The notes under the pieces were generated by a model. That model did no database searches. It had not been told where the DNA came from and saw only the letters and a program-made list of their open reading frames with translations. Positions 3,201-37,485 of a stretch of DNA of 64,000 bases are shown in pieces. Origin of the DNA: Eledone cirrhosa (Eukaryota); contig OZ024740.1 in the NCBI GenBank assembly GCA_964016885.1, positions 682,001 to 746,000 of the forward strand, given 5' to 3'. The translations under genes and the position numbers were made by a program. The stretch's first letter is position 1, and the number at the start of each line of letters is the position of its first letter.

Positions 3201-4935
3201 CCGCGGTGAGCCACTAAAGCTTGAAGGAAGGATCACCTGATACCCAACATTGGTTGCGTCACCGTTACGCTGCAAAGCATACTTAAGATGAGCGTATTGA
3301 ACCCCTCTTAGTTCTTTTTGATGGGTACGTATGTACAGAAGATGTTCCGCTTCAATCTTTGCGAACATATCAACCAAGAACTGGTTTGTCACCTCTTTAA
3401 ACCTAAGTAGTTGGTTGAATTGACCGTCTCTGATCATGAGTCGGTATGCATAAAACTCCATGCTGGAAACTTTCTTTGGTAAAGCAGCAAGACTTTTCGG
3501 ATCAATTGTCGGAATCTTGAAGTTGTAGCCATCCTCGCCGTAGGGAAAAAGAAGAGGGTACTGCAAGCAATCGTACAACCGATGGGTTTCTGCAACGAAC
3601 GTCAGTCTGTTATTGCGATGCTGAATGATGATGTCACGTGCACCATGATTTTCATCAAACATGATTGCTGCTACCTCGTTGGTAGTTGGAGCGTTGAAAC
3701 ATCCAGGATGCCCGCCCGCAGGTCGTCTGTCAACTCTGATGACCAATTTCATCTCATGTCTAGAGTCCAAAAGCTGCAAAGCACTCTTCAAGTCACGGAC
3801 GTACGGATGGGTTGCATGGAGCATAATTTGAAGTTCCGCAACAATGTTCCCGTCAACAGATGAATTGATCTTGCATCTTTGGGAAACTTCATCATTCCCG
3901 CCCATGAAGAATACCTGGAGGAATTTAGGCTCCTCGCATAGCTGTGAGTGAAGGCTTCCCATTAGGTGGTAACACTGACCTTGAATTTTGTAGGTGTAAA
4001 GTTTTTCTTTCTTTCTTCGTTGTCACAATTGCTGGCGACACCGGTGTTGTTGCTGTTGTTGTTGTTATTTTTGTTGTTTCTGCCATCCCTTACACCAAAT
4101 GATGTCATAGCGAAGCATGAATTGTGTCTCCAAATGCTTTTGCGAAACTTCACTCCGTGGTCAGAGTTACCAATGAGAAGATTTTGCAGCAAATCAGCAT
4201 GATCAGCCAGCGCCTGAAGTCGAACTTTTCCCCCGGAACAGCAAAGACCTAGAGCCTCACCGACCCACTTCTAAGCCCCACAGGACTGACATTCCTTATC
4301 CATTTTTCCAAGAGCCAAATCCGGGTTATTGGTGTAATCATCAGAAGGATTGTAGTTAAAGCCAGCTTTTAAGCAAAAGTGTCCCTTGAAGTAGCAGCAT
4401 TTTCTTGATGTTTACACGTTCTACCTGCCAGCCTTTCTTCCCTTGCCTCCGGAGTCTCGTTGAGACGTGAGTGTTGGCACTGATCGCGCTGGGCAGAAAG
4501 ACGGGCTTCCCTTGCCTCCGGAGTCTCCTCGAGGAGTGAGAGTTGGCGCTGATTGCGGTCAACAGCAAGATGGGCTTCCCTTGCCTCCGGAGTCTCCTCG
4601 AGGAGTGAGAGTTGGCGCTGATTGCGGTCAACAGCAAGATGGGCTTCCCTTGCCTCCGGAGTCTCCTCAAGGAGTGAGAGTTGGCGCTGATTGCGGTCAA
4701 CAGCAAGATGGGCTTCCCTTGCCTCCGGAGTCTCCTCGGGGAGTGAGAGTTGGCGCTGATTGCGGTCAACAGCAAGATGGGCTTCCCTTGCCTCCGGAGT
4801 CTCCTCAAGACGTGAGCGTTGGTCGCGAGTGCGCTGGGCAATAAGACGGGCCTCCCTTGCCTCCGGAGTCTCGTTGAGACGTGAGCGTTGGCGCTGAATG
4901 CACTGGTCAGTAAGACGGGCCTCCCTTGCATCCAA
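244..4935 (-). mobile_element. Decayed autonomous Helitron (Rep/PIF1-helicase ORF broken by stops and frameshifts)
   Basis: Minus-strand fragments in the expected order: 23-aa ETPEAREARL-type repeats (4369-4935); CQSC..CC zinc motif (~4220-4310); Rep with VEWQK / AHILIW (HUH region) and KYICKYINKG (Y2); helicase LDAPGG (Walker A), IIWDEATM, FAMSINKAQGQSL, HGQLYVG. Termini not clearly resolved. Confidence 0.93.
4440..4930 (-). repeat. 69-nt coding tandem repeat (~7 copies of a 23-aa STPR-like unit) at the Helitron N-terminus
   Basis: ORF 4369..4935 repeats ETPEAREAHLAVDRNQRQLSLLE (23 aa). Confidence 0.85.
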
Positions 4936-12025: not shown

Positions 12026-12244
<219 letters not shown>

Positions 12245-13420: not shown

Positions 13421-13553
13421 ATCCTGGACAATAGCAGATGTTGAGGCTCTGGATACAGAATTTCACCAAAGTTTGTTGTGGATACAAGATACAGATATCA
13501 CTGAACATGATCTAGTCATGACATTCTCAGTGAATGAAGAGGTTTTCGGACAG
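13421..13553 (+). CDS. HECW2: HECW-type E3 ligase HECT exon ([22 protein letters not shown]...VNEEVFGQ)
   Basis: TTACAG acceptor, CAG|GTAACC donor; HECT N-lobe motif. Confidence 0.93.
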
Positions 13554-17770: not shown

Positions 17771-17979
17771 TGCCTTAACCCTTAAGCATTTAAACTGGCC
17801 GTAACTGGCTGCTCATACCGATGTTAAGGTATTGTTCTCAAAAAAAATAATATCAAAATGTAGATTCGATATTATGTGAGATAAAGTGTTTACTGTGAAA
17901 ATACAATAGTAAATATAGAGTAATGTAAATATTAAAATGTTAAGGAATAACTTCACTACATCAAAATCCTTTCTTGCAG

Positions 17980-18126
17980 GTTACTGAAAGGGAGTTGAAG
18001 CCCAATGGAAAGAACATACCAGTAACTGAGAAAACTAAGAAAGAATACATAGAAAAAATGGTGAACTGGCGCTTAGAAAGGGGAGTAACAGAGCAAACAG
18101 AATGCCTAATTAAGGGTTTTTATGAG
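17980..18126 (+). CDS. HECW2: HECW-type E3 ligase HECT exon ([17 protein letters not shown]...IKGFYE)
   Basis: TTCTTGCAG acceptor, GAG|GTATGT donor, 49 codons. Confidence 0.94.
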
Positions 18127-18325
18127 GTATGTTGTTTACTACATGATGAGCAATGTTTTCTAATTATGTTCTGATTGGCTTGCTAGTACCAGTAATATAC
18201 TCATGTTCGTGTGTATGTGTGTTTATATATGTATGTTGGTGATACAACAAATAAGCACCCAGTCTCCCCTTGTAGGGTGGTCTTGCCGGTGACACAACAA
18301 AAAACACCTGATCCGCCCTGTAAAA

Positions 18326-20036
18326 TGGTCATGTAGGTGTCATAACACAAACCAGCCCACACTGTAAAGTGGTCATGTAGGTGTCACGACACAAACCACC
18401 CAGCCCCCACTATAAAGTGGTCATGTAGGTGTCATGATACAAACCACCCAGCCCCCACTATAAAGTGGTCATGTAGGTGTCAAAACACAAACTACCCAGC
18501 CCCCACTATAAAGTGGTCATGTAGGTGTCACGACACAAACCACCCAGCCCACACTGTAAATTGATCATGTAGGTGTCACAACACAAACCACCCAGCCCAC
18601 ACTATAAAGTGGTCATGTAGGTGTCATAACACAAACTACCCCGCCCCACTATAAAGTGGTCATGTAGGTGTCATAACCCAAACTACTCAGCCCCCACTAT
18701 AAAGTGGTCGTGTAGGTGTCACGACACAAACCACCCAGCCCCCACTATAAAGTCATGTAGGTGTCACGACACAAACCACCCAGCCCCCACTATAAAGTGG
18801 TCATGTAGGTGTCACAACACAAACCACCCAGCCCACACTATAAAGTGGTCATGTAGGTGTCATAACACAAACTACCCCGCCCCACTATAAAGTGGTCATG
18901 TAGGTGTCATAACCCAAACTACTCAGCCCCCACTATAAAGTGGTCGTGTAGGTGTCACGACACAAACCACCCAGCCCCCACTATAAAGTCATGTAGGTGT
19001 CACGACACAAACCACCCAGCCCCCACTATAAAGTGGTCATGTAGGTGTCACAACACAAACTACCCAGCCCATACTGTAAAGTGGTCATGTAGGTGTCACA
19101 ACACAAACTACCCAGCCCCCACTATAAAGTGGTCATGTAGGTGTCACGACACAAACCACTCAGCCCACACTGTAAAGTGGTCATGTAGGTGTCACAACAC
19201 AAACTACCCAGCCCCCACTATAAAGTGGTCATGTAGGTGTCACAACACAAACTACCCAGCCCCCACTATAAAGTGGTCATGTAGGTGTCACGACACAAAC
19301 CACTCAGCCCACACTGTAAAGTGGTCATGTAGGTGTCACGACACAAACTACCCAGCCTCCACTATAAAGTGGTCATGTAGGTGTCACGACAGAAACCACT
19401 CAGCCCACACTGTAAAGTGGTCATGTAGGTGTCACAACACAAACTACCCAGCCCCCACTATAAAGTGGTCATGTAGGTGTCACGACACAAACTACCCGTA
19501 CCACACTATAAAGTGGTCATGTAGGTGTCACGACATAAACCACCCAGCCCACACTATAAAGTGGTCATGTAGGTGTCATGATACAAACCACCCAGCCCAC
19601 ACTATAAAGTGGTCATGTAGGTGTCATAACACAAACCAGCCCACACTGTAAAGTGGTCATGTAGGTGTCACGACATAAACCACCCAGCCCACACTATAAA
19701 GTGGTCATGTAGGTGTCACGACATAAACCACCCAGCCCACACTATAAAGTGGTCATGTAGGTGTCATGATACAAACCACCCAGCCCACACTATAAAGTGG
19801 TCATGTAGGTGTCATGACACAAACCACCCAGCCCACACTATAAAGTGGTCATGTAGGTGTCATGATACAAACCACCCAGCCCACACTATAAAGTGGTCAT
19901 GTAGGTGTCATGATACAAACCACCCAGTACACACTGTAAAGTGGTCATGTAGGTGTCACGACATAAACCACCCAGCCCACACTATAAAGTGGTCATGTAG
20001 GTGTCACGACACAAACCACCCAGTACACACTGTAAA
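18326..20036. repeat. 48-nt minisatellite, ~35 copies, expanded from the SINE/RTE 3'UTR repeat
   Basis: Unit GTGGTCATGTAGGTGTCACGACACAAACCACCCAGCCCACACTATAAA; continues into the usual SINE/LINE tail to ~20185. Confidence 0.95.
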
Positions 20037-20250
20037 TGTGGTTGGCTTTAGGAAAGGCATCCAGCCAAAGAAACCAACCCCAAATCAGTGTATGAGTAAG
20101 ACATATTCATCTGACCTGGCCTATCTCACAACAGGACAACTCGTCTAACCCATACTAGAATGCAAAATGGACATTAAATGATGATATATATATACGCATA
20201 CACATTTATTTTGATTTACAAATGAGTAAACTCAAAAATAGCAATACAAT

Positions 20251-23200
20251 GATAAACCATGTCTAACACATTATTCCTTCTCTACAGGTGATAGACCATG
20301 TCTAACACACATTATTCCTTCTCTACAGGTGATAGACCATGTCTAACACACATTATTCCTTCTCTACAGGTGATAGACCATGTCTAACACACATTATTCC
20401 TTCTCTACAGGTGATAGACCATGTCTAACACACATTATTCCTTCTCTACAGGTGATAGACCATGTCTAACACACATTCCTTCTCTGCAGGTGATAGACCG
20501 TGTCTAACACACATTCCTTTTCTACAGGTGATAGACCGTGTCTAACACACATTCCTTCTCTACAGGTGATAGACCATGTCTAACACACATTATTCCTTCT
20601 CTACAGGTGATAGACCATGTCTAACACACATTCCTTCTCTACAGGTGATAGACCGTGTCTAACACACATTCCTTCTCTACAGGTGATAGACCATGTCTAA
20701 CACACATTATTCCTTCTCTACAGGCGATAGACCATGTCTAACACACATTCCTTCTCTACAGGTGACAGACCGTGTCTAACACACATTCCTTCTCTACAGG
20801 TGATAGACCATGTCTAACACACATTCCTTCTCTACAGGTGATAGACCATGTCTAACACACATTATTCCTTCTCTACAGGTGATAGACCATGTCTAACACA
20901 CATTCCTTCTCTACAGGTGACAGACCGTGTCTAACACACATTCCTTCTCTACAGGTGATAGACCATGTCTAACACACATTATTCCTTCTCTACAGGTGAT
21001 AAACCATGTCTAACACACATTCCTTCTCTACAGGTGATAGACCATGTCTAACACACATTCCTTCTCTACAGGTGATAGACCATGTCTAACACACATTATT
21101 CCTTCTCTACAGGTGATAGACCATGTCTAACACACATTCCTTCTCTACAGGTGACAGACCGTGTCTAACACACATTCCTTCTCTACAGGTGATAGACCAT
21201 GTCTAACACACATTATTCCTTCTCTACAGGTGATAGACCATGTCTAACACACATTCCTTCTCTACAGGTGATAGACCATGTCTAACACACATTCCTTCTC
21301 TACAGGTGATAAACCATGTCTAACACACATTCCTTCTCTACAGGTGATAGACCATGTCTAACACACATTCCTTCTCTACAGGTAATAGACCATGTCTAAC
21401 ACACATTATTCCTTCTCTACAGGTGATAAACCATGTCTAACACACATTCCTTCTCTACAGGTGATAGACCGTGTCTAACACACATTCCTTCTCTACAGGT
21501 GATAGACCATGTCTAACACACATTATTCCTTCTCTACAGGTGATAGACCATGTCTAACACACATTCCTTCTCTACAGGTGATAGACCATGTCTAACACAC
21601 ATTATTCCTTCTCTACAAGTGATAAACCATGTCTAACACACATTATTCCTTCTCTACAGGTGATAGACCATGTCTAACACACATTCCTTCTCTACAGGTG
21701 ATAGACCATGTCTAACACACATTCCTTCTCTACAGGTGATAGACCATGTCTAACACACATTATTCCTTCTCTACAGGTGATAGACCATGTCTAACACACA
21801 TTCCTTCTCTACAGGTGACAGACCGTGTCTAACACACATTCCTTCTCTACAGGCGATAAACCATGTCTAACACACATTCCTTCTCTACAGGTGACAGACC
21901 GTGTCTAACACACATTCCTTCTCTACAGGTGATAGACCATGTCTAACACACATTATTCCTTCTCTACAGGTGATAGACCATGTCTAACACACATTCCTTC
22001 TCTACAGGTGACAGACCGTGTCTAACACACATTCCTTCTCTACAGGTGATAGACCATGTCTAACACACATTATTCCTTCTCTACAGGTGATAAACCATGT
22101 CTAACACACATTCCTTCTCTACAGGTGATAGACCATGTCTAACACACATTCCTTCTCTACAGGTGATAGACCATGTCTAACACACATTATTCCTTCTCTA
22201 CAGGTGATAAACCATGTCTAACACACATTCCTTCTCTACAGGTGATAGACCATGTCTAACACACATTCCTTCTCTACAGGTGATAGACCATGTCTAACAC
22301 ACATTATTCCTTCTCTACAGGTGATAGACCATGTCTAACACACATTCCTTCTCTACAGGTGATAGACCATGTCTAACACACATTATTCCTTCTCTACAAG
22401 TGATAAACCATGTCTAACACACATTATTCCTTCTCTACAGGTGATAGACCATGTCTAACACACATTATTCCTTCTCTACAGGTGATAGACCATGTCTAAC
22501 ACACATTCCTTCTCTACAGGTGATAGACCATGTCTAACACACATTCCTTCTCTACAGGTGATAGACCATGTCTAACACACATTCCTTCTCTACAGGTGAT
22601 AGACCATGTCTAACACATTATTTCTTCTCTACAGGTGATAAACCATGTCTAACACATATTATTCCTTCTCTACAGGTGATAGACCATGTCTAACACACAT
22701 TATTCCTTCTCTACAGGTGATAGACCATGTCTAACACACATTCCTTCTCTACAGGTGACAGACCGTGTCTAACACACATTCCTTCTCTACAGGTGATAGA
22801 CCATGTCTAACACACATTATTCCTTCTCTACAGGTGATAGACCATGTCTAACACACATTCCTTCTCTACAGGTGATAGACCATGTCTAACACACATTCCT
22901 TCTCTACAGGTGATAAACCATGTCTAACACACATTCCTTCTCTACAGGTGATAGACCATGTCTAACACACATTCCTTCTCTACAGGTGATAGACCATGTC
23001 TAACACACATTATTCCTTCTCTACAGGTGATAAACCATGTCTAACACACATTCCTTCTCTACAGGTGATAGACCGTGTCTAACACACATTCCTTCTCTAC
23101 AGGTGATAGACCATGTCTAACACACATTATTCCTTCTCTACAGGTGATAGACCATGTCTAACACACATTCCTTCTCTACAGGTGATAGACCATGTCTAAC

Positions 23201-25810
23201 ACACATTATTCCTTCTCTACAGGTGATAGACCATGTCTAACACACATTCCTTCTCTACAGGTGATAAACCATGTCTAACACACATTCCTTCTCTACAGGT
23301 GATAGATCATGTCTAACACACATTATTCCTTCTCTACAGGTGATAGACCATGTCTAACACACATTCCTTCTCTACAGGTGACAGACCGTGTCTAACACAC
23401 ATTCCTTCTCTACAGGCGATAGACCATGTCTAACACACATTCCTTCTCTACAGGTGACAGACCGTGTCTAACACACATTCCTTCTCTACAGGTGATAGAC
23501 CATGTCTAACACACATTATTCCTTCTCTACAGGTGATAAACCATGTCTAACACACATTCCTTCTCTACAGGTGATAGACCATGTCTAACACACATTCCTT
23601 CTCTACAGGTGATAGACCATGTCTAACACACATTATTCCTTCTCTACAGGTGATAGACCATGTCTAACACACATTCCTTCTCTACAGGTGACAGACCGTG
23701 TCTAACACACATTCCTTCTCTACAGGTGATAGACCATGTCTAACACACATTATTCCTTCTCTACAGGTGATAAACCATGTCTAACACACATTCCTTCTCT
23801 ACAGGTGATAGACCATGTCTAACACACATTCCTTCTCTACAGGTGATAGACCATGTCTAACACACATTATTCCTTCTCTACAGGTGATAGACCATGTCTA
23901 ACACACATTCCTTCTCTACAGGTGATAGACCATGTCTAACACACATTATTCCTTCTCTACAAGTGATAAACCATGTCTAACACACATTATTCCTTCTCTA
24001 CAGGTGATAGACCATGTCTAACACACATTATTCCTTCTCTACAGGTGATAGACCATGTCTAACACACATTCCTTCTCTACAGGTGATAGACCATGTCTAA
24101 CACACATTCCTTCTCTACAGGTGATAGACCATGTCTAACACATATTATTTCTTCTCTACAGGTGATAGACCATGTCTAACACATATTATTTCTTCTCTAC
24201 AGGTGATAGACCATGTCTAACACACATTCCTTCTCTACAGGTGATAGACCATGTCTAACACATTATTTCTTCTCTACAGGTGATAGACCATGTCTAACAC
24301 ATATTATTCCTTCTCTACAGGTGATAGACCATGTCTAACACACATTATTCCTTCTCTACATTTGATAAACCATGTCTAACACACATTATTCCTTCTCTAC
24401 AGGTGATAGACCATGTCTAACACACATTATTCCTTCTCTACAGGTGATAGACCATGTCTAACACACATTCCTTCTCTACAGGTGATAGACCATGTCTAAC
24501 ACACATTCCTTCTCTACAGGTGATAGACCATGTCTAACACATATTATTTCTTCTCTACAGGTGATAGACCATGTCTAACACATATTATTTTTTCTCTACA
24601 GGTGATAGACCATGTCTAACACATATTATTCCTTCTCTACAGGTGATAGACCATGTCTAACACACATTCCTTCTCTACAGGTGATAAACCATGTCTAACA
24701 CACATTATTCCTTCTCTACAAGTGATAGACCATGTCTAACACATATTATTTCTTCTCTACAGGTGATAGACCATGTCTAACACATATTATTTCTTCTCTA
24801 CAGGGCGGTGGATTGGCAGTATCGGTAGAGGGTCGGACGCCATGCTTTCCAGCATAGTTACGTCCCTTTACGATCTGAGTTCAAATCCCGCCGAGGTTGA
24901 CTTTGCCTTTCATCCTTACGGGGTCGATAAAATAAAGTACCAGTAATGCACTGGGTAATTGCTGGCCTTGTGCCAAAAGTAGAAACAATTATTTCTTCTC
25001 TACAGGTGCTAGACCATGTCTAACACACATTCTTTCTCTACAGGTGATAAACCATGTCTAACACACATTATTCCTTCTCTACAGGTGATAGACCATGTCT
25101 AACACATATTATTTCTACTCTACAGGTGATAGACCATGTCTAACACACATTCCTTCTCTACAGGTGATAGACCATGTCTAACACACATTCTTTCTCTACA
25201 GGTGATAAACCATGTCTAACACACATTATTCCTTCTCTACAGGTGATAGACCATGTCTAACACATATTATTTCTTCTCTACAGGTGATAGACCATGTCTA
25301 ACACACATTCCTTCTCTACAGGTGATAGACCATGTCTAACACACATTATTCCTTCTCTACAGGTGATAGACCATGTCTAACACACATTCCTTCTCTACAG
25401 GTGATAGACCATGTCTAACACACATTATTCCTTCTCTACAGGTGATAGACCATGTCTAACACACATTCCTTCTCTACAGGTGATAGACCATGTCTAACAC
25501 ACATTCCTTCTCTACAGGTGATAAACCATGTCTAACACACATTATTCCTTCTCTACAGGTGATAGACCATGTCTAACACACATTATTCCTTCTCTACAGG
25601 TGATAGACCATGTCTAACACACATCATTCCTTCTCTACAGGTGATAGACCATGTCTAACACATATTCCTTCTCTACAGGTTATAGACCATGTCTAACACA
25701 CATTATTCCTTCTCTACAGGTGATAAACCATGTCTAACACACATTCCTTCTCTACAGGTGATAAACCATGTCTAACACACATTATTCCTTCTCTACAGGT
25801 GATTGACCAT
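20251..25810 (+). repeat. 38/41-nt minisatellite (~135-140 copies) consisting of the exon's 3' splice site
   Basis: Unit GTGATAGACCATGTCTAACACACAT(TAT)TCCTTCTCTACAG; the final copy runs straight into the exon GTGATTGACCATCGT. Confidence 0.97.
24804..24987 (+). mobile_element. tRNA-derived SINE (second family) inserted in the splice-site array
   Basis: 18-nt TSD ATTATTTCTTCTCTACAG (24786-24803 and 24988-25005); A box TGGCAGTATCGG, B box GAGTTCAAATCC; homolog at 59582-59800. Confidence 0.9.
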
Positions 25811-25913
25811 CGTTTAGTTTCTGCCTTTGATGCTCGGGAACTGGAACTTGTAATTGCTGGAACGGTAGAAATTGATATTAATGACTGGAGGAAAAATACT
25901 GAGTATCGCTCAG
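25799..25913 (+). CDS. HECW2: HECW-type E3 ligase HECT exon ([38 protein letters not shown])
   Basis: Acceptor is the last array unit; CAG|GTAGGA donor, phase 1. Confidence 0.94.
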
Positions 25914-26959: not shown

Positions 26960-27045
26960 GTTATCATGACCAACATCTTGTTATTCAATGGTTTTGGGCA
27001 GCAATTGAAAAATTTGATAATGAAAGAAGGTTACGCCTCTTACAG
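26960..27045 (+). CDS. HECW2: HECW-type E3 ligase HECT exon ([29 protein letters not shown])
   Basis: TTTTCTAG acceptor, CAG|GTAAAT donor. Confidence 0.94.
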
Positions 27046-27761: not shown

Positions 27762-27968
<207 letters not shown>

Positions 27969-28593: not shown

Positions 28594-28737
<144 letters not shown>

Positions 28738-30822
28738 AGCTGATTATCTTGAGTCATTTGATGATGATGTGGATGAGGAAGAGGAGGAGTCTAATTACAG
28801 CAACAGTAACTAATTGTCTGTTTAGGGCAACAGCAGCAGCTCTACGTAGCAACACTTGTTGTCTGTATATCTTGCTATAACAGTAAAACTATCTACAATT
28901 GTCTGCTATGTCTCTGGCCGAATGCAACTGCTATTTTGCAGGAAGTCACACACAAATACACACATACACATACATGTGCATCATACATACACATCATATA
29001 TATGAAAGATGTAAGGAAATTGACACTATATATAACTACATTGTTGCCTTGAAACTATGTAGTACAGTAGTTTAACTAGATTTACTGATATACGCATAAA
29101 TAACATAACAAAACTTATATAATATATTCCCTTATTTGGTTTGAAGCACAAAATCAAACCAAGGTTCCCTGTAATCCAATGTGCATCGCATGAATTTATT
29201 TTTGATGCACTGTAGCATATTTCTGTGATATGAGATGGATGTTGGAGACAGATATTTTGCTGGTTGCCTGGGTTGACAAAACAAGAAGTATGCGAGATAT
29301 ATATATAAATATATGATAAAAAAAGGAAAAGCATTGCATAGTAAGCAGCCTTACCATAACACTGGCTTAACAGAAATACTTCTATTGTCTTTGACATTGC
29401 TGCTGTCTAAAAATCATCTCTTCCATTACCAATAACTTAAATGTTGACCCCTCACAGTGCCGCAAATGTGAGGGGTCAAAAGATATTTATAGTGCCGCAA
29501 ATGTGAGGGGTCAAAAGATATTTATTGATGGAAAAAAAAAATGAAGAGAAACAAAAAAAAAGAACACAAAAGAAAATTGCTGTGTAACATTCATAGCTTT
29601 GGGCTCAGTTAACAGAGAAGATAAAGTTTTCTCTTTCTCTTTGTCCATCTATCTATCTCTTTATAAACATGTTTGGGAGAGAAAAAGAAAGTCCCACCTA
29701 TCAACAAACACAAGAGATTTAGATTTTGTATATTTGTCAGAGAAATTTCTATTATCATTGGACAGTGAATGTAATTGATTTAACATGTATGTGTGTGCGT
29801 ATATATATATATATATATCTATATATAACATATACACGTGTGCGTGTATGTGTGTGTATGTAAAAATATTTATAAATATATGTATGTATATAACATATAC
29901 GCACATGTGCATATGTCTGTGTATATATATATACATGTATATACATGTGTATACACACAAACATTTGTTTTGTTTTATTAATCATAATAGGCCTTCCCTT
30001 CCTTTGTCCTGATAAAAATATTATATCAATTATTAAAATAGTGTAGCATCAATGACGGTGCCCCAGCATGGCCTCAGCCTCTTCACTGGAACATGTAAAA
30101 TAAAAAACTGAAAATATAGCAAATTGCTGATAGGAGGGATGAGAAGATTTCTATTTATAAATCATATTCACTTATTATATTTTGCAATTTTTTATAGATA
30201 TGCATGTATGTGTGTGTATATAGTATGTGTGTATATATATATGTGTGTATGTATATAGTATATGTATATATGTGTGTATGTGTATGTATATATATGGATG
30301 TATATATATATATCTGTATGTGTATATATATATATGTATGTATATGTATATATATACATTTATATATATATATATATGTATATGTACATATATATGTATA
30401 TGTGTGTGTATATATGTAAGTATATATACATATGTGTGTATATATGTAAGTATATATACATATGTGTATGTATATATATATATTTATATATATATATATA
30501 CATATATATATCGACATAGTATAAATATTATATGGTGTTATAATATAAAAACTGGACGGTCTTCTTATCCCTGCTCTACACAGTAAAAGAAAGGATTAAA
30601 ATTCACTACACTAAGGGTCACATCCTGGATATTTGACTAGGTTTAAGAATGTTGAGGGTATCTATGTCTGCTCACAACTACATGGTCACATAAAACCATT
30701 AGGGGAAGCTACATACTACCATGTTATCCTGCAACTGAGGCAAAAGAGAAACCAATATATATAACATATACATATGTATAACGTGTGTGTGTGTGTATAT
30801 ATATAACATCTACACATGTATG

Positions 30823-35479: not shown

Positions 35480-37485
35480 AAGATGTCGCATCTCAGAGTT
35501 GCCACACTTAATGTTGGCACTCTAACAGAGGGTGACTTGGTGGAACAGCACGGTAGATAGGGCCATTAGAGACAAAAGACTAGCTTGGAAAAATGGTGGC
35601 AGTAGAGACCGATACAGTTGCTAAGAGAGAAGCTAGACATCAGGTGTACTTAGCACGCAGGGAGGCTGAGAGTAGGAGGTTTGACAATGTTCTGCGATGG
35701 GGAAGATCAGAGACATGCGGTGTTCTGCATTGCAAGGCAGTGTGTCAATGCAAATCAGGATGTTGTTGGAGATAAGTGTGTCCGGAATGATGCCGGTGTA
35801 CTTAGTGTCACGAATGATCAAAAAAAGGAGGCCTGGAAATGTCATTATGAGAGACTAATGAATGTGGAGAACAAATGGGAGAGAGAAATTACCTTCAGTA
35901 GATCCGACAGAGGGACCAGCTATTGAGATTAAGGAAATGAAAAATGGTAAGGCCGCTGGACTGTCAGGGATAGTTGTTGAGATGCTGAAGTCATCAGGAG
36001 AAGTAGGCACTAAACTAGTTGCATGCATCATCAATCAAGCTATATATGGTGATGTCATACCCAAAGACTGGTGCAGCAGTGTTCTCATGAATTGCTACAA
36101 AGGTAAAGGGGATGCTCTGGAGGAGCAATTATAGGGGCATAAAGCTGATAGATCAGGTTATGAAAGTGCCAGAGTGAATATTAGCACAACTGATTAGAGA
36201 AAGGGTCAAACTAGATGAGATGCAGTTTGGTTTTGTGCCTGGGAAAAGTACAACAAATGCCCTCTTCTTGGTGAGACAACTACAAGAGAGGTTCTTAGAG
36301 AAGAATAAGCCACTATACTTAGCTTTTGTTGACCTAGAGAAGGCCTTTCATAGGGCACCCCGATCTGTCATCTGGTGGTCCCAAATGAAACTAGGTGTAG
36401 AGGAATGGCTTGTGAGGACAGTGCAAGCTATGTACAGAGGAGCTGTCAGTAAAGTGAGTGTAGGAATGCAGTTTAGTGAGGAATTCCAAATACAAGTATA
36501 ACATCAGGGTTTGGTCCTCAGCCCACACTTGTTCATTATAGTCCTCCAAGCCATAACAGAGGAGTTTAAGACTGGCTGTCTTTGGGAACTTCTCTATGTT
36601 GATGATCTGGTTCTTATAGCAGAATCAGTAGAGGAGCTAGAGAATAAATTCTGGCTATGGAAACAGCAGTTGGAATCAAGAGGACTGAGAGTGAACCTAG
36701 CTAAGACAAAAGTGTTGATAAGTAGAAAAGAGGACAAACCTCTGATTGCATCAGGGAAATGGCCATGTTCGATATGTAGAAAAGGAACTGGCATAAATTC
36801 TATAAAATGTGCGCAATGCAGATCTTGGGTACACAAGAGATGTAGTGGGAGAGCAGGCAAACTAGGTAGGGAAAGTTGACAGTAGTAATTGCAGTGATAG
36901 ACACATCTTTCAAATGCAGGTGGATTCTATAGAAGTGGTTGATAGCTTCCAGTATTTAGGTGATCAGATTAGCATGGGTGGGGGTGTTCCGAGGCCATAG
37001 TATCTAGAATAAGGGTGGGTTGGAAGAAGTTTAGGGAGCTACTTCCTCTGTTGACAAAGAAGAGTTTCTCCCTGCGTACGAAAGGCCGGTTATATGATAC
37101 CTGTGTGAGATGCGTGATGCTGCATGGTAGTGAGACATGGGCAGCAACTGCAAAGCATATGCAACGGCTGGAGAGAAATGAAGCAAGCATGCTCCTTTGG
37201 ATGTGTAATGTCAATGTGCGTGAATGACCAAGCATAGATGTGTTGAGAGAGAAACTGGGTATAAGAGGGATAAGTTGTAGTGTGCGGGAGAGAAGACTGC
37301 GATGGTATGGACATGTGATGTGCAGACCACAAAAAATATGGGCGGATGTGGTGGGAGCAGACCTCAGATTGCTGGAGCTCATGGAGGAGATGACAAAGGA
37401 CCGTGAAAAGTGGAGAGATACTGTGCTGAATAGGACCAGTCCCACCCTTGTAAGCAGGGAAAAGCAGACGTAAAATGATGATGAT
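35480..37485 (+). mobile_element. RTE-clade LINE, internally deleted and degenerate (close relative of 15400-17770)
   Basis: APE N-terminal remnant (LRVATLNVGTL) then RT motifs [14 protein letters not shown]; (ATG)n tail. Confidence 0.9.

What the first reader, a model, noticed from the sequence alone, without database searches (positions are those of the whole stretch)
20251..25913. About 135-140 tandem copies of the exon's own 3' splice site: a decoy or ratchet acceptor array
Seen: every 38/41-nt unit has a CTAAC branch point (A at -21 or -24), a pyrimidine tract, CAG, then GTGATAGACCAT, the first four codons (VIDH) of the real exon GTGATTGACCAT. Only the last acceptor (25798/25799) opens the HECT frame. 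Any earlier intact unit reads V-I-D-H-V-TAA or a close variant, a stop at codon 6 that removes the catalytic C-lobe and should trigger NMD. Each junction CAG|GTGA also regenerates a 5'-splice-like site, the AG|GT signature of recursive splicing, and a GT after nt 12 would define an in-frame 12-nt microexon. Known: acceptor anatomy, recursive splicing, NMD. Inference: the array may tune HECW dosage by copy number, be removed in recursive steps, or titrate SF1/U2AF. Alternatively, exon definition simply ignores it. A neutral slippage origin is plausible, but the splicing problem it poses is real.
Basis: partly seen in the sequence, partly recalled or inferred. Interest (0 to 1): 0.9.

Follow-up and report, generated by a model that had tools for sequence, protein, structure and literature searches.

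The report
Repeated splice acceptor in HECW gene
The signal that ends one intron of an animal ubiquitin-ligase gene is repeated 137 times in a row; the cell likely splices only at the last copy, as in repeats of this kind known from lancelets and humans, and most of the extra copies carry one letter change that is predicted to fold over and hide part of the signal.

Summary
Observation confirmed. At 20250-25798, 137 units (mostly 38 or 41 nt) copy the last ~29 nt of a HECW intron plus 12 exon-like bases. 132 keep the AG, and only the last opens the HECT frame. The array is single-locus, holds a SINE with an 18-nt target duplication, and grew from a 9/11-nt intron-exon microhomology.

It is a large member of a known kind: amphioxus 'mirages', human F7/CBS junction repeats. 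A spliced contig from this species has exactly the length of the normal 18126-to-25799 mRNA (inferred from length, not read). Two other organisms' contigs join these exons directly. Recursive splicing, microexon use and dosage control have no support.

The scan found this before on other DNA of this genome. I confirmed two Beclin-1 acceptor arrays (248 and ~53 copies). Minisatellites are dense here (76 in 864 kb), so chance origin suffices.

New here: one A>G change in 113 of 136 units is the most stabilising of 123 possible changes. It is predicted to bury each decoy's branch point in a hairpin, while the real acceptor's unit lacks it. This is post hoc, 21 decoys stay open, and the 51-nt Beclin-1 array has no hairpin.

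The parts
12097..12195 (+). HECW coding exon (HECT profile 40-71)
   Evidence: Pfam HECT; boundaries
13421..13553 (+). HECW coding exon (HECT 76-119)
17980..18126 (+). Upstream exon; phase-0 donor GAG|GTATGT at 18126
   Evidence: Pfam HECT 122-168; contigs of X21, X5 and X18 cover exactly 17977-18128
18127..25798 (+). 7,672-nt intron that holds the arrays
18321..20042 (+). Unrelated 48-nt minisatellite, 36 copies, not on a splice site
20250..25798 (+). Acceptor minisatellite ('mirage'): 137 units, 132 with CAG
20250..20260 (+). Intronic seed TGATAAACCAT, 9 of 11 identical to exon bases 25800-25810; 5' edge of the array
20288..20308 (+). Example of the predicted 21-nt hairpin of G7-type units (113 of 136), which pairs the exon-like start with the CTAAC branch motif
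   Evidence: RNA folding, -7.4 kcal/mol per unit against -1.0 for A7 units; prediction only
24804..24987 (+). Dispersed SINE-like element inserted into the array, with an 18-nt target-site duplication
   Evidence: 76 hits of 120 nt or more in 864 kb (one is itself), best other copy 98.4%
25720..25757 (+). Penultimate unit, A7 type with an open branch point; the most likely leaky decoy (would give a 156-nt exon with TAA at 25773-25775)
   Evidence: use not observed
25758..25798 (+). Last unit = the functional 3' splice site (A7 type, no hairpin)
25799..25913 (+). Real 115-nt exon (HECT 170-206), donor CAG|GTAGGA
26960..27045 (+). HECW coding exon
27855..27967 (+). HECW coding exon (HECT 238-269)
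28626..29485 (+). Last exon: coding to the stop at 28737 (HTCFN catalytic-cysteine motif, role recalled), then 3' UTR at least to the 35-nt tandem repeat at 29456

Best explanation
This is a minisatellite of 137 copies of the 3' splice site of one HECW intron, which likely arose by a chance short duplication and is likely tolerated because splicing picks the last copy, the one joined to the whole exon. Shown: the array, its single locus, the seed microhomology, the SINE insertion, block duplications of unit types, and direct exon-to-exon joining in two other organisms. Inferred origin: slippage or unequal exchange between intronic TGATAAACCAT and exonic TGATTGACCAT made the first GTGATAAACCAT unit, and ordinary minisatellite turnover amplified it. 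Inferred use of the last acceptor in this species: contig length arithmetic. Inferred mechanism of choice: exon definition from the only strong nearby donor (25913) and the purine-rich real exon limits candidates to the last ~5 acceptors and favours the nearest. A predicted hairpin shuts the branch point of 113 of 136 units, including the three of those five that lie further upstream. Stray products would carry a stop at codon 6 and would likely be removed by NMD.
For: Own-species contig X21 record 9 (3,440 nt, depth 24.3, 0 mismatches) covers only 17977-18128, so it is spliced, and has 1,174 nt after base 18126. The canonical path 25799-25913 + 26960-27045 + 27855-27967 + 28626 onward reaches 1,174 nt at 29485, which is exactly where a k=31 contig must end at the 35-nt repeat starting at 29456 (k=31 assumed from the tool text and recall). 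In X5 and X18, 18126 joins 25799 with adjacent record positions, and the loose end reads the real exon. Seed and A7-type edge units. Longest repeated run of unit types is 10, against at most 7 in 500 shuffles. The array has 0 GA[AG] triplets against 3.5-10.9 per 100 nt in five of six exons, 6.1 in the real exon. 5 of 137 acceptors give an exon of 300 nt or less. 76 arrays in 864 kb, and two more acceptor arrays in Beclin-1. Precedents: PMC3087553, PMC3902484, PMC1557585, PMC2630376.
Against: The own-species junction is inferred from length and was not read letter by letter. It rests on one sample. Contigs drop rare forms and NMD would hide decoy products. Whether organisms A and B have the array is unknown, so their junctions only fix the ancestral splice. 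The penultimate acceptor also has an open branch point (0.75 against 0.64 for the last) and gives a normal-sized exon, so the choice between the last two is unexplained by anything measured. The real acceptor's last 8 nt are predicted less accessible (0.07-0.15) than the decoys' (~0.5). The sweep of the single most stabilising change is unexpected under pure neutrality. In IFI6 (6-16) and CBS intron 13, nearby pseudo-sites are used (PMC1557585 introduction).
Confidence: 0.72

Rival explanations
1. Self-silencing array: the array was mildly harmful, and the A7>G unit spread, or let the array grow, because its hairpin hides the decoy branch points, while the real acceptor's unit kept A7.
For: A7>G ranks first of 123 single changes for stabilising the last unit (-1.0 to -7.4 kcal/mol) and is in 113 of 136 units. 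Median P(CTAAC unpaired) is 0.05-0.07 in G7 units against 0.43-0.53 in A7 units across three window sizes; the last unit ranks 2, 3 and 7 of 136. No general hairpin bias was seen in 49 local minisatellites (median z 0.14; 17 against 21 of 38 informative edge-versus-consensus pairs), so a DNA-level drive is not evident. Yeast cryptic 3' splice sites are enriched in stems (10.1101/2022.07.22.501175, passages).
Against: The test is post hoc: about 1/41 if only transitions count, and about 12% that one of the 5 common substitutions ranks first (hand estimate). Edge units keeping the ancestral state is normal in tandem arrays (PMC3087553). 21 decoys with AG remain A7, the penultimate among them. 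The Beclin-1 51-nt array has 246 of 248 AG and no predicted structure. With DNA parameters the unit is not unusually folded (z -0.33). No structure probing exists.
Confidence: 0.13
2. Dosage rheostat: a regulated share of transcripts uses upstream acceptors and goes to NMD, so copy number tunes HECW output.
For: 131 decoys keep AG and all lead to an early stop. Two alternative 3' splice sites can be bound at once, and this inhibits splicing in vitro (PMC5389562, abstract). Only 1 of 8 core positions is mutated against 16 of 41 overall (p about 0.09 by hand, not significant).
Against: The one own-species contig runs unbroken across the junction by length. A stop at codon 6 needs no design. AG itself is lost in 5 units by two different changes. 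Similar arrays sit in unrelated genes. No conservation was shown.
Confidence: 0.07
3. Recursive (ratchet) removal: donor 18126 splices to an array acceptor, and the regenerated GAG|GTGATA is then used to reach 25799.
For: It would give the same mature mRNA, so contigs cannot exclude it. The junction scores 7 of 9 against the donor consensus, the same count as three real donors here. Tandem AGGT dual-specific sites are used in human UBC (PMC10809524, abstract).
Against: AG|GT is inherited from the exon start and occurs at 4 of 7 acceptors of this gene in the window. The site has +3G and lacks +5G, while all five real donors scored have +3A. The GT is predicted paired (CAGGT unpaired 0.01-0.03). 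Ratchet points are conserved, lie mostly in long introns and need a defined RS-exon (PMC8605326, passages). The intron is 7.7 kb, or about 2.1 kb without the array.
Confidence: 0.05
4. Assembly artefact that inflates the copy number.
For: Long tandem arrays are hard to assemble, and no read spanning the array was seen.
Against: 29 distinct unit sequences, block-duplicated runs and a SINE with an 18-nt target duplication. A DNA contig spans the last 25 nt of the last unit, the exon and the next intron with 1 mismatch, and summed contig depth is 183.6 in the bin holding the last unit against 10.5 in the next (not a copy number, and the run may be the assembly's own sample).
Confidence: 0.03

Closest known systems
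Amphioxus 'mirage' minisatellites (BflGb6, BflGb9, Adh3, troponin C, PGBD5; PMC3087553 section 16 read, PMC3902484 passages read)
   Same: Tandem copies of an intron-exon boundary. BflGb6 repeats the 3' end of an intron plus the start of the next exon, as here. Many units keep AG/GT, regular splicing is reported unaffected, and edge units escape homogenisation.
   Different: 137 copies against 3-7 in the globin and PGBD5 cases read. Different phylum. Internal SINE. A predicted branch-point hairpin in most decoys. The original Adh3 paper was not held, so its copy numbers were not seen.
Human CBS 844ins68 (PMC2630376, passage read)
   Same: Duplication of an intron-end/exon-start junction; splicing strongly favours the distal site and yields normal mRNA.
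   Different: Two copies only. The passage calls the sites 'donor' although the paper it cites concerns 3' splice sites. That regulatory paper (Romano 2002) was seen only as a reference.
Human donor-side junction VNTRs: F7 intron 7, CBS intron 13, 6-16 (IFI6), lamin B2, PDGF (PMC1557585 abstract, introduction and discussion read)
   Same: A minisatellite reiterates a splice site; the copy joined to the real exon is used, and in some genes the one or two nearest pseudo-sites as well.
   Different: 5' rather than 3' splice sites; 5-25 copies.
Drosophila ratchet points / RS-exons (PMC8605326, passages read) and UBC dual-specific sites (PMC10809524, abstract read)
   Same: AG|GT juxtaposition; tandem AGGT sites in UBC.
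   Different: Ratchet points are conserved sites in long introns with a generally strong donor. UBC sites lie in coding repeats and give in-frame isoforms. Here the donor-like site lacks +5G, is predicted paired, and every unit carries a stop.
Beclin-1 acceptor arrays in the same genome (G000:C20:7206575-7219121 and 7227949-7231266)
   Same: Acceptor plus exon-start units running up to a real exon; 246 of 248 AG in the 51-nt array.
   Different: No predicted structure over the branch zone. I did not test their splicing.

Membership tests
Mirage / exon-intron-junction minisatellite | Tandem units that span an exon-intron boundary | tested here: met
   Each unit is ~26-29 intron nt plus 12 exon-like nt; the array ends at 25798|25799
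Mirage / exon-intron-junction minisatellite | Many units keep the splice signal | tested here: met
   132 of 137 CAG; 136 of 137 CTAAC
Mirage / exon-intron-junction minisatellite | Regular splicing persists | tested here: met
   By exact contig length in this species; junction letters not read; minor forms not visible
Mirage / exon-intron-junction minisatellite | Tandem turnover: variant units, block duplication, distinct edge units | tested here: met
   Repeated run of 10 unit types against at most 7 in 500 shuffles; both edges A7
Mirage / exon-intron-junction minisatellite | Length polymorphism or somatic instability | not testable with these tools
   Only contigs were served; the read tool does not take long repeats
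Recursive splicing ratchet point | Juxtaposed AG|GT | tested here: met
   CAG|GT at most junctions, but also at 4 of 7 real acceptors of this gene
Recursive splicing ratchet point | Strong regenerated donor | tested here: inconclusive
   7 of 9 consensus matches, +3G without +5G, predicted paired; no trained splice-site model was available
Recursive splicing ratchet point | Splicing intermediates or lariats at the site | not testable with these tools
   No raw or nascent reads were served
Recursive splicing ratchet point | Conservation across species | not tested
   No intron sequence of related organisms was obtained
12-nt microexon | Usable donor after nt 12 and inclusion in mRNA | tested here: not met
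   CAT|GTCTAA matches 4 of 9; contig length leaves no room for 12 extra nt
HECW (NEDL) HECT ligases | HECT domain preceded by the HECW1_helix domain | tested here: met
   PF00632 in 6 of 6 exons scanned, 4 over the curated cut-off; both PF18436 hits of the genome lie 28-30 kb upstream of the window on the same strand

The most novel reading that the evidence does not exclude
A splice-site minisatellite that silenced itself. One point change that folds each decoy's branch point into a hairpin was selected and swept 83% of the array through repeat turnover, leaving the working acceptor open. RNA structure would then decide which splice-site repeats can grow.
Probability: 0.13. Interest if true: 0.7.

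Novelty: new member of a known kind. Interest (0 to 1): 0.36.

Why it matters
As ordinary tolerated repeat DNA it still shows that a spliceosome can pass 131 near-identical intact acceptors within 5.5 kb and use the last, far beyond the 2-25 copies in the cases read. This argues against first-AG scanning from the donor and for exon-anchored choice. The locus has built-in controls for a direct test of how 3' splice sites are chosen: open A7 units, hairpin G7 units and AG-less units. If the hairpin variant was selected, it would be an example of RNA structure evolving inside a minisatellite to protect splicing. The basic arrangement is known and recurs in this genome, which limits the surprise.

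Tried and rejected
No RNA holder listed: one search names no run on record as RNA and serves no raw reads. That X21, X5 and X18 are transcript data is my inference from contigs that cover exons only.

In one search, X21 gave no cover of exons 25799-25913, 27855-27967 or most of the last exon, although it holds 0.99 of the words of 28628-29520. The DNA run X24 also had a hole at 28614-28715. The tool leaves records out by a filter, so the hole is uninformative, but I could not read X21's downstream exons directly. X21's loose end at 18128 was not among the rows shown.

X5 and X18 showed no intron cover near the acceptor, so relatives' intron state is unknown.

The 12-nt microexon was rejected. 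Selection to keep the splice signals was not significant (about 0.09 by hand). A general DNA-hairpin drive of minisatellite growth was not seen (49 of the 76 arrays, those with 8 or more copies and period up to 80; 56 edge pairs after dropping HECW, identical and over-20%-different edges).

The fasciclin array named in earlier notes was not located: 1 of the 6 contigs with PF02469 hits was fetched, and its arrays were not examined at exon ends. Six arrays upstream in this gene (C1:619752-680606) were viewed at both ends and none runs into an exon, although one has an acceptor-like unit.

The PDB search could not name the subfamily: best hits were SMURF, ITCH and WWP; Pfam PF18436 did.

Papers not held. 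Searches for a cephalopod report listed 1 and 4 papers, none on this topic by title and abstract start; searches gave no paper on hairpin-masked splice-site minisatellites by listing. The library lacks most subscription journals. No supplements were read.
Full report
WHAT IS THERE. The window is C1:682001-746000 of a 3.0-Gb animal genome. Earlier scan notes call it octopod; I did not test that. It holds the last seven exons of a HECT ligase on the + strand: six were scanned and all six match Pfam HECT in order. Both HECW1_helix hits of the genome lie just upstream on the same strand, so the gene is HECW-type. The intron 18127-25798 holds a 48-nt array (18321-20042) and the array in question. 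That array has 137 acceptor-ending units: 75 of 38 nt, 59 of 41 nt, 2 of 39 nt and one of 202 nt. 132 end in CAG and 136 carry CTAAC. Of the 131 upstream acceptors with AG, 130 meet TAA at codon 6 and one stops inside a SINE. Only 25798|25799 continues the HECT frame. A unit 20-mer has 83 exact hits in the genome, all here.

IS IT REAL. There are 29 distinct unit sequences. The order of unit types has a repeated run of 10, against at most 7 in 500 shuffles. A 184-nt dispersed element sits at 24804-24987 with an 18-nt target-site duplication; it has 76 hits of 120 nt or more in 864 kb, itself included, the best other at 98.4%. A DNA contig runs from 25774 through the exon with one mismatch, and summed contig depth piles up on the last unit (not a copy number, and possibly the assembly's own sample). 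No read spanning the whole array was seen.

ORIGIN (inferred). The 5' edge reads TGATAAACCAT and the exon, from its second base, reads TGATTGACCAT: 9 of 11 alike. A slip or unequal exchange inside the shared TGAT gives exactly the GTGATAAACCAT (A7) unit. That type is found at both ends and in 23 of 136 units. The majority GTGATAGAC (G7) type is then most simply one later A>G change. A7 being ancestral rests on the two edges, not on an outgroup.

IS THE PLACE SURPRISING. In 864 kb sampled around this gene, Beclin-1 and a fasciclin gene there are 76 arrays (period 25-160, 5 or more copies), 30 of them with 20 or more copies and 7 with 100 or more, covering 20% of the bases. The sample was chosen near such arrays and is biased. 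With 150,000-250,000 acceptors assumed, the window's density or a tenth of it predicts 53-879 arrays seeded on an acceptor. Following earlier notes, I confirmed two acceptor arrays in Beclin-1: 51 nt x 248 with 246 AG, and 62 nt x ~53, both ending at real exons. Chance origin is enough.

WHICH ACCEPTOR IS USED. Only contigs were available. In runs X5 and X18, from two other organisms, 18126 joins 25799 directly: record positions are adjacent and the loose end reads the real exon. In X21, from the same organism code as the DNA runs that hold the stretch, one 3,440-nt contig with no mismatch covers only 17977-18128, while DNA run X23 goes on into the intron, so the contig is spliced. It has 1,174 nt after base 18126. 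The canonical exons give 314 nt plus 860 nt of the last exon, ending at 29485. That is precisely where a k=31 contig must stop, because 31-mers repeat from 29456. An extra 12, 38 or 41 nt would not fit. This is strong but indirect: the junction letters were not displayed, and the limits are given under Tried and rejected. Contigs drop rare forms, and NMD would hide decoy products.

HOW THE LAST ONE IS PICKED (inferred). The only strong nearby donor found is 25913, and 5 of 137 acceptors make an exon of 300 nt or less with it. The array has no GA[AG] triplet, while the real exon has 6.1 per 100 nt; reading these as enhancer-like is from general knowledge. Exon-anchored definition therefore favours the nearest acceptor. 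CBS 844ins68 behaves this way with two copies (PMC2630376, passage), and F7 does so for donors (PMC1557585).

THE HAIRPIN. G7 units are predicted to fold their first 21 nt into a hairpin of -7.4 kcal/mol per unit against -1.0 for A7 units; 0.6-2% of dinucleotide shuffles do as well. The stem takes in the CTAAC motif: median unpaired probability 0.05-0.07 in 113 G7 units, 0.43-0.53 in 23 A7 units, and 0.58-0.69 in the last unit. A7>G is the most stabilising of all 123 single changes. No genome-wide bias towards folded majority units appeared in 49 arrays. Against a role: the test is post hoc; 21 decoys with AG stay open, the penultimate included; the real acceptor's AG region is predicted less open than the decoys'; edge units normally stay ancestral (PMC3087553); and the Beclin-1 51-mer has no structure at all. 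I give selection for masking 0.13. The hairpin may reduce competition even if it spread by drift.

Microexon: the donor matches 4 of 9 and the contig has no room for it. Recursive splicing: AG|GT is the exon's own start and occurs at 4 of 7 acceptors here. The junction scores 7 of 9 by count but has +3G without +5G and is predicted paired. Ratchet points are conserved sites mostly in long introns (PMC8605326). It cannot be excluded without nascent reads. Dosage or factor titration: two acceptors can be bound at once and inhibit splicing in vitro (PMC5389562, abstract), so a cost is plausible, but nothing here shows regulation. The splice signals are not significantly spared by mutation: 1 of 8 core positions hit against 16 of 41 overall (about 0.09 by hand).

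COMPARISON. It works like, and is a member of, the exon-intron-junction minisatellites called mirages in amphioxus (PMC3087553 section 16; PMC3902484 passages). Four of the five defining features were met; length polymorphism was untestable. It is larger than the cases read. No cephalopod report appeared in two searches of a library that lacks most subscription journals. The scan had already noted the same kind in USP10, ECM29, fasciclin and Beclin-1 of this genome; those notes led me to the mirage papers, which I then read.

VERDICT. Real; a new, large member of a known kind; most likely tolerated (0.72). Interest 0.36: a clean natural test of 3' splice-site choice, with one untested twist, the branch-point hairpin.

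Noticed in passing
window:12659-12931: 49-nt x 5.6 array whose unit holds a donor-like GAGCAG|GTAATA, not next to any HECT exon found
   Followed up: no
window:18321-20042: 48-nt x 36 array in the same intron; similar 47-49-nt units form arrays at C20:7223902, 7436797, 7466111 and C1:881859, so a dispersed repeat seems to seed minisatellites repeatedly
   Followed up: partly
window:247-4947: Degenerate reading frames on the minus strand that look like a Helitron Rep/helicase (recalled, no search), with a 69-nt coding repeat at 4437-4933
   Followed up: no
window:15500-17700 and 35500-37450: Two broken LINE-type reverse-transcriptase remnants (recalled resemblance, no search)
   Followed up: no
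G000:C1:664630-667013 (L015): 41-nt x 58 array with an acceptor-like unit (CTCAC, pyrimidines, CAG|G) inside the HECW gene that does not run into an exon; a natural control for decoy use
   Followed up: partly
G000:C1:673824-680606 (L014): 27-nt x 252 array ending about 70 nt before the acceptor of an upstream HECW exon, without including it
   Followed up: partly
G000:C1:833931-876177 and 923096-946000: Very long arrays: 52 nt x ~800 (41 kb) and 70 nt x at least 327
   Followed up: no
G000:C20:7425944-7426887 and 7446219-7447560: 45-nt arrays made of the head of the same SINE-like element that is inserted in the acceptor array
   Followed up: no
window:12195/12196: Unusual donor AGA|GTCAGT of the first HECT exon in the window
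   Followed up: no
window:29456-29525: Perfect 35-nt tandem duplication in the 3' UTR; used here to fix the contig end
   Followed up: yes
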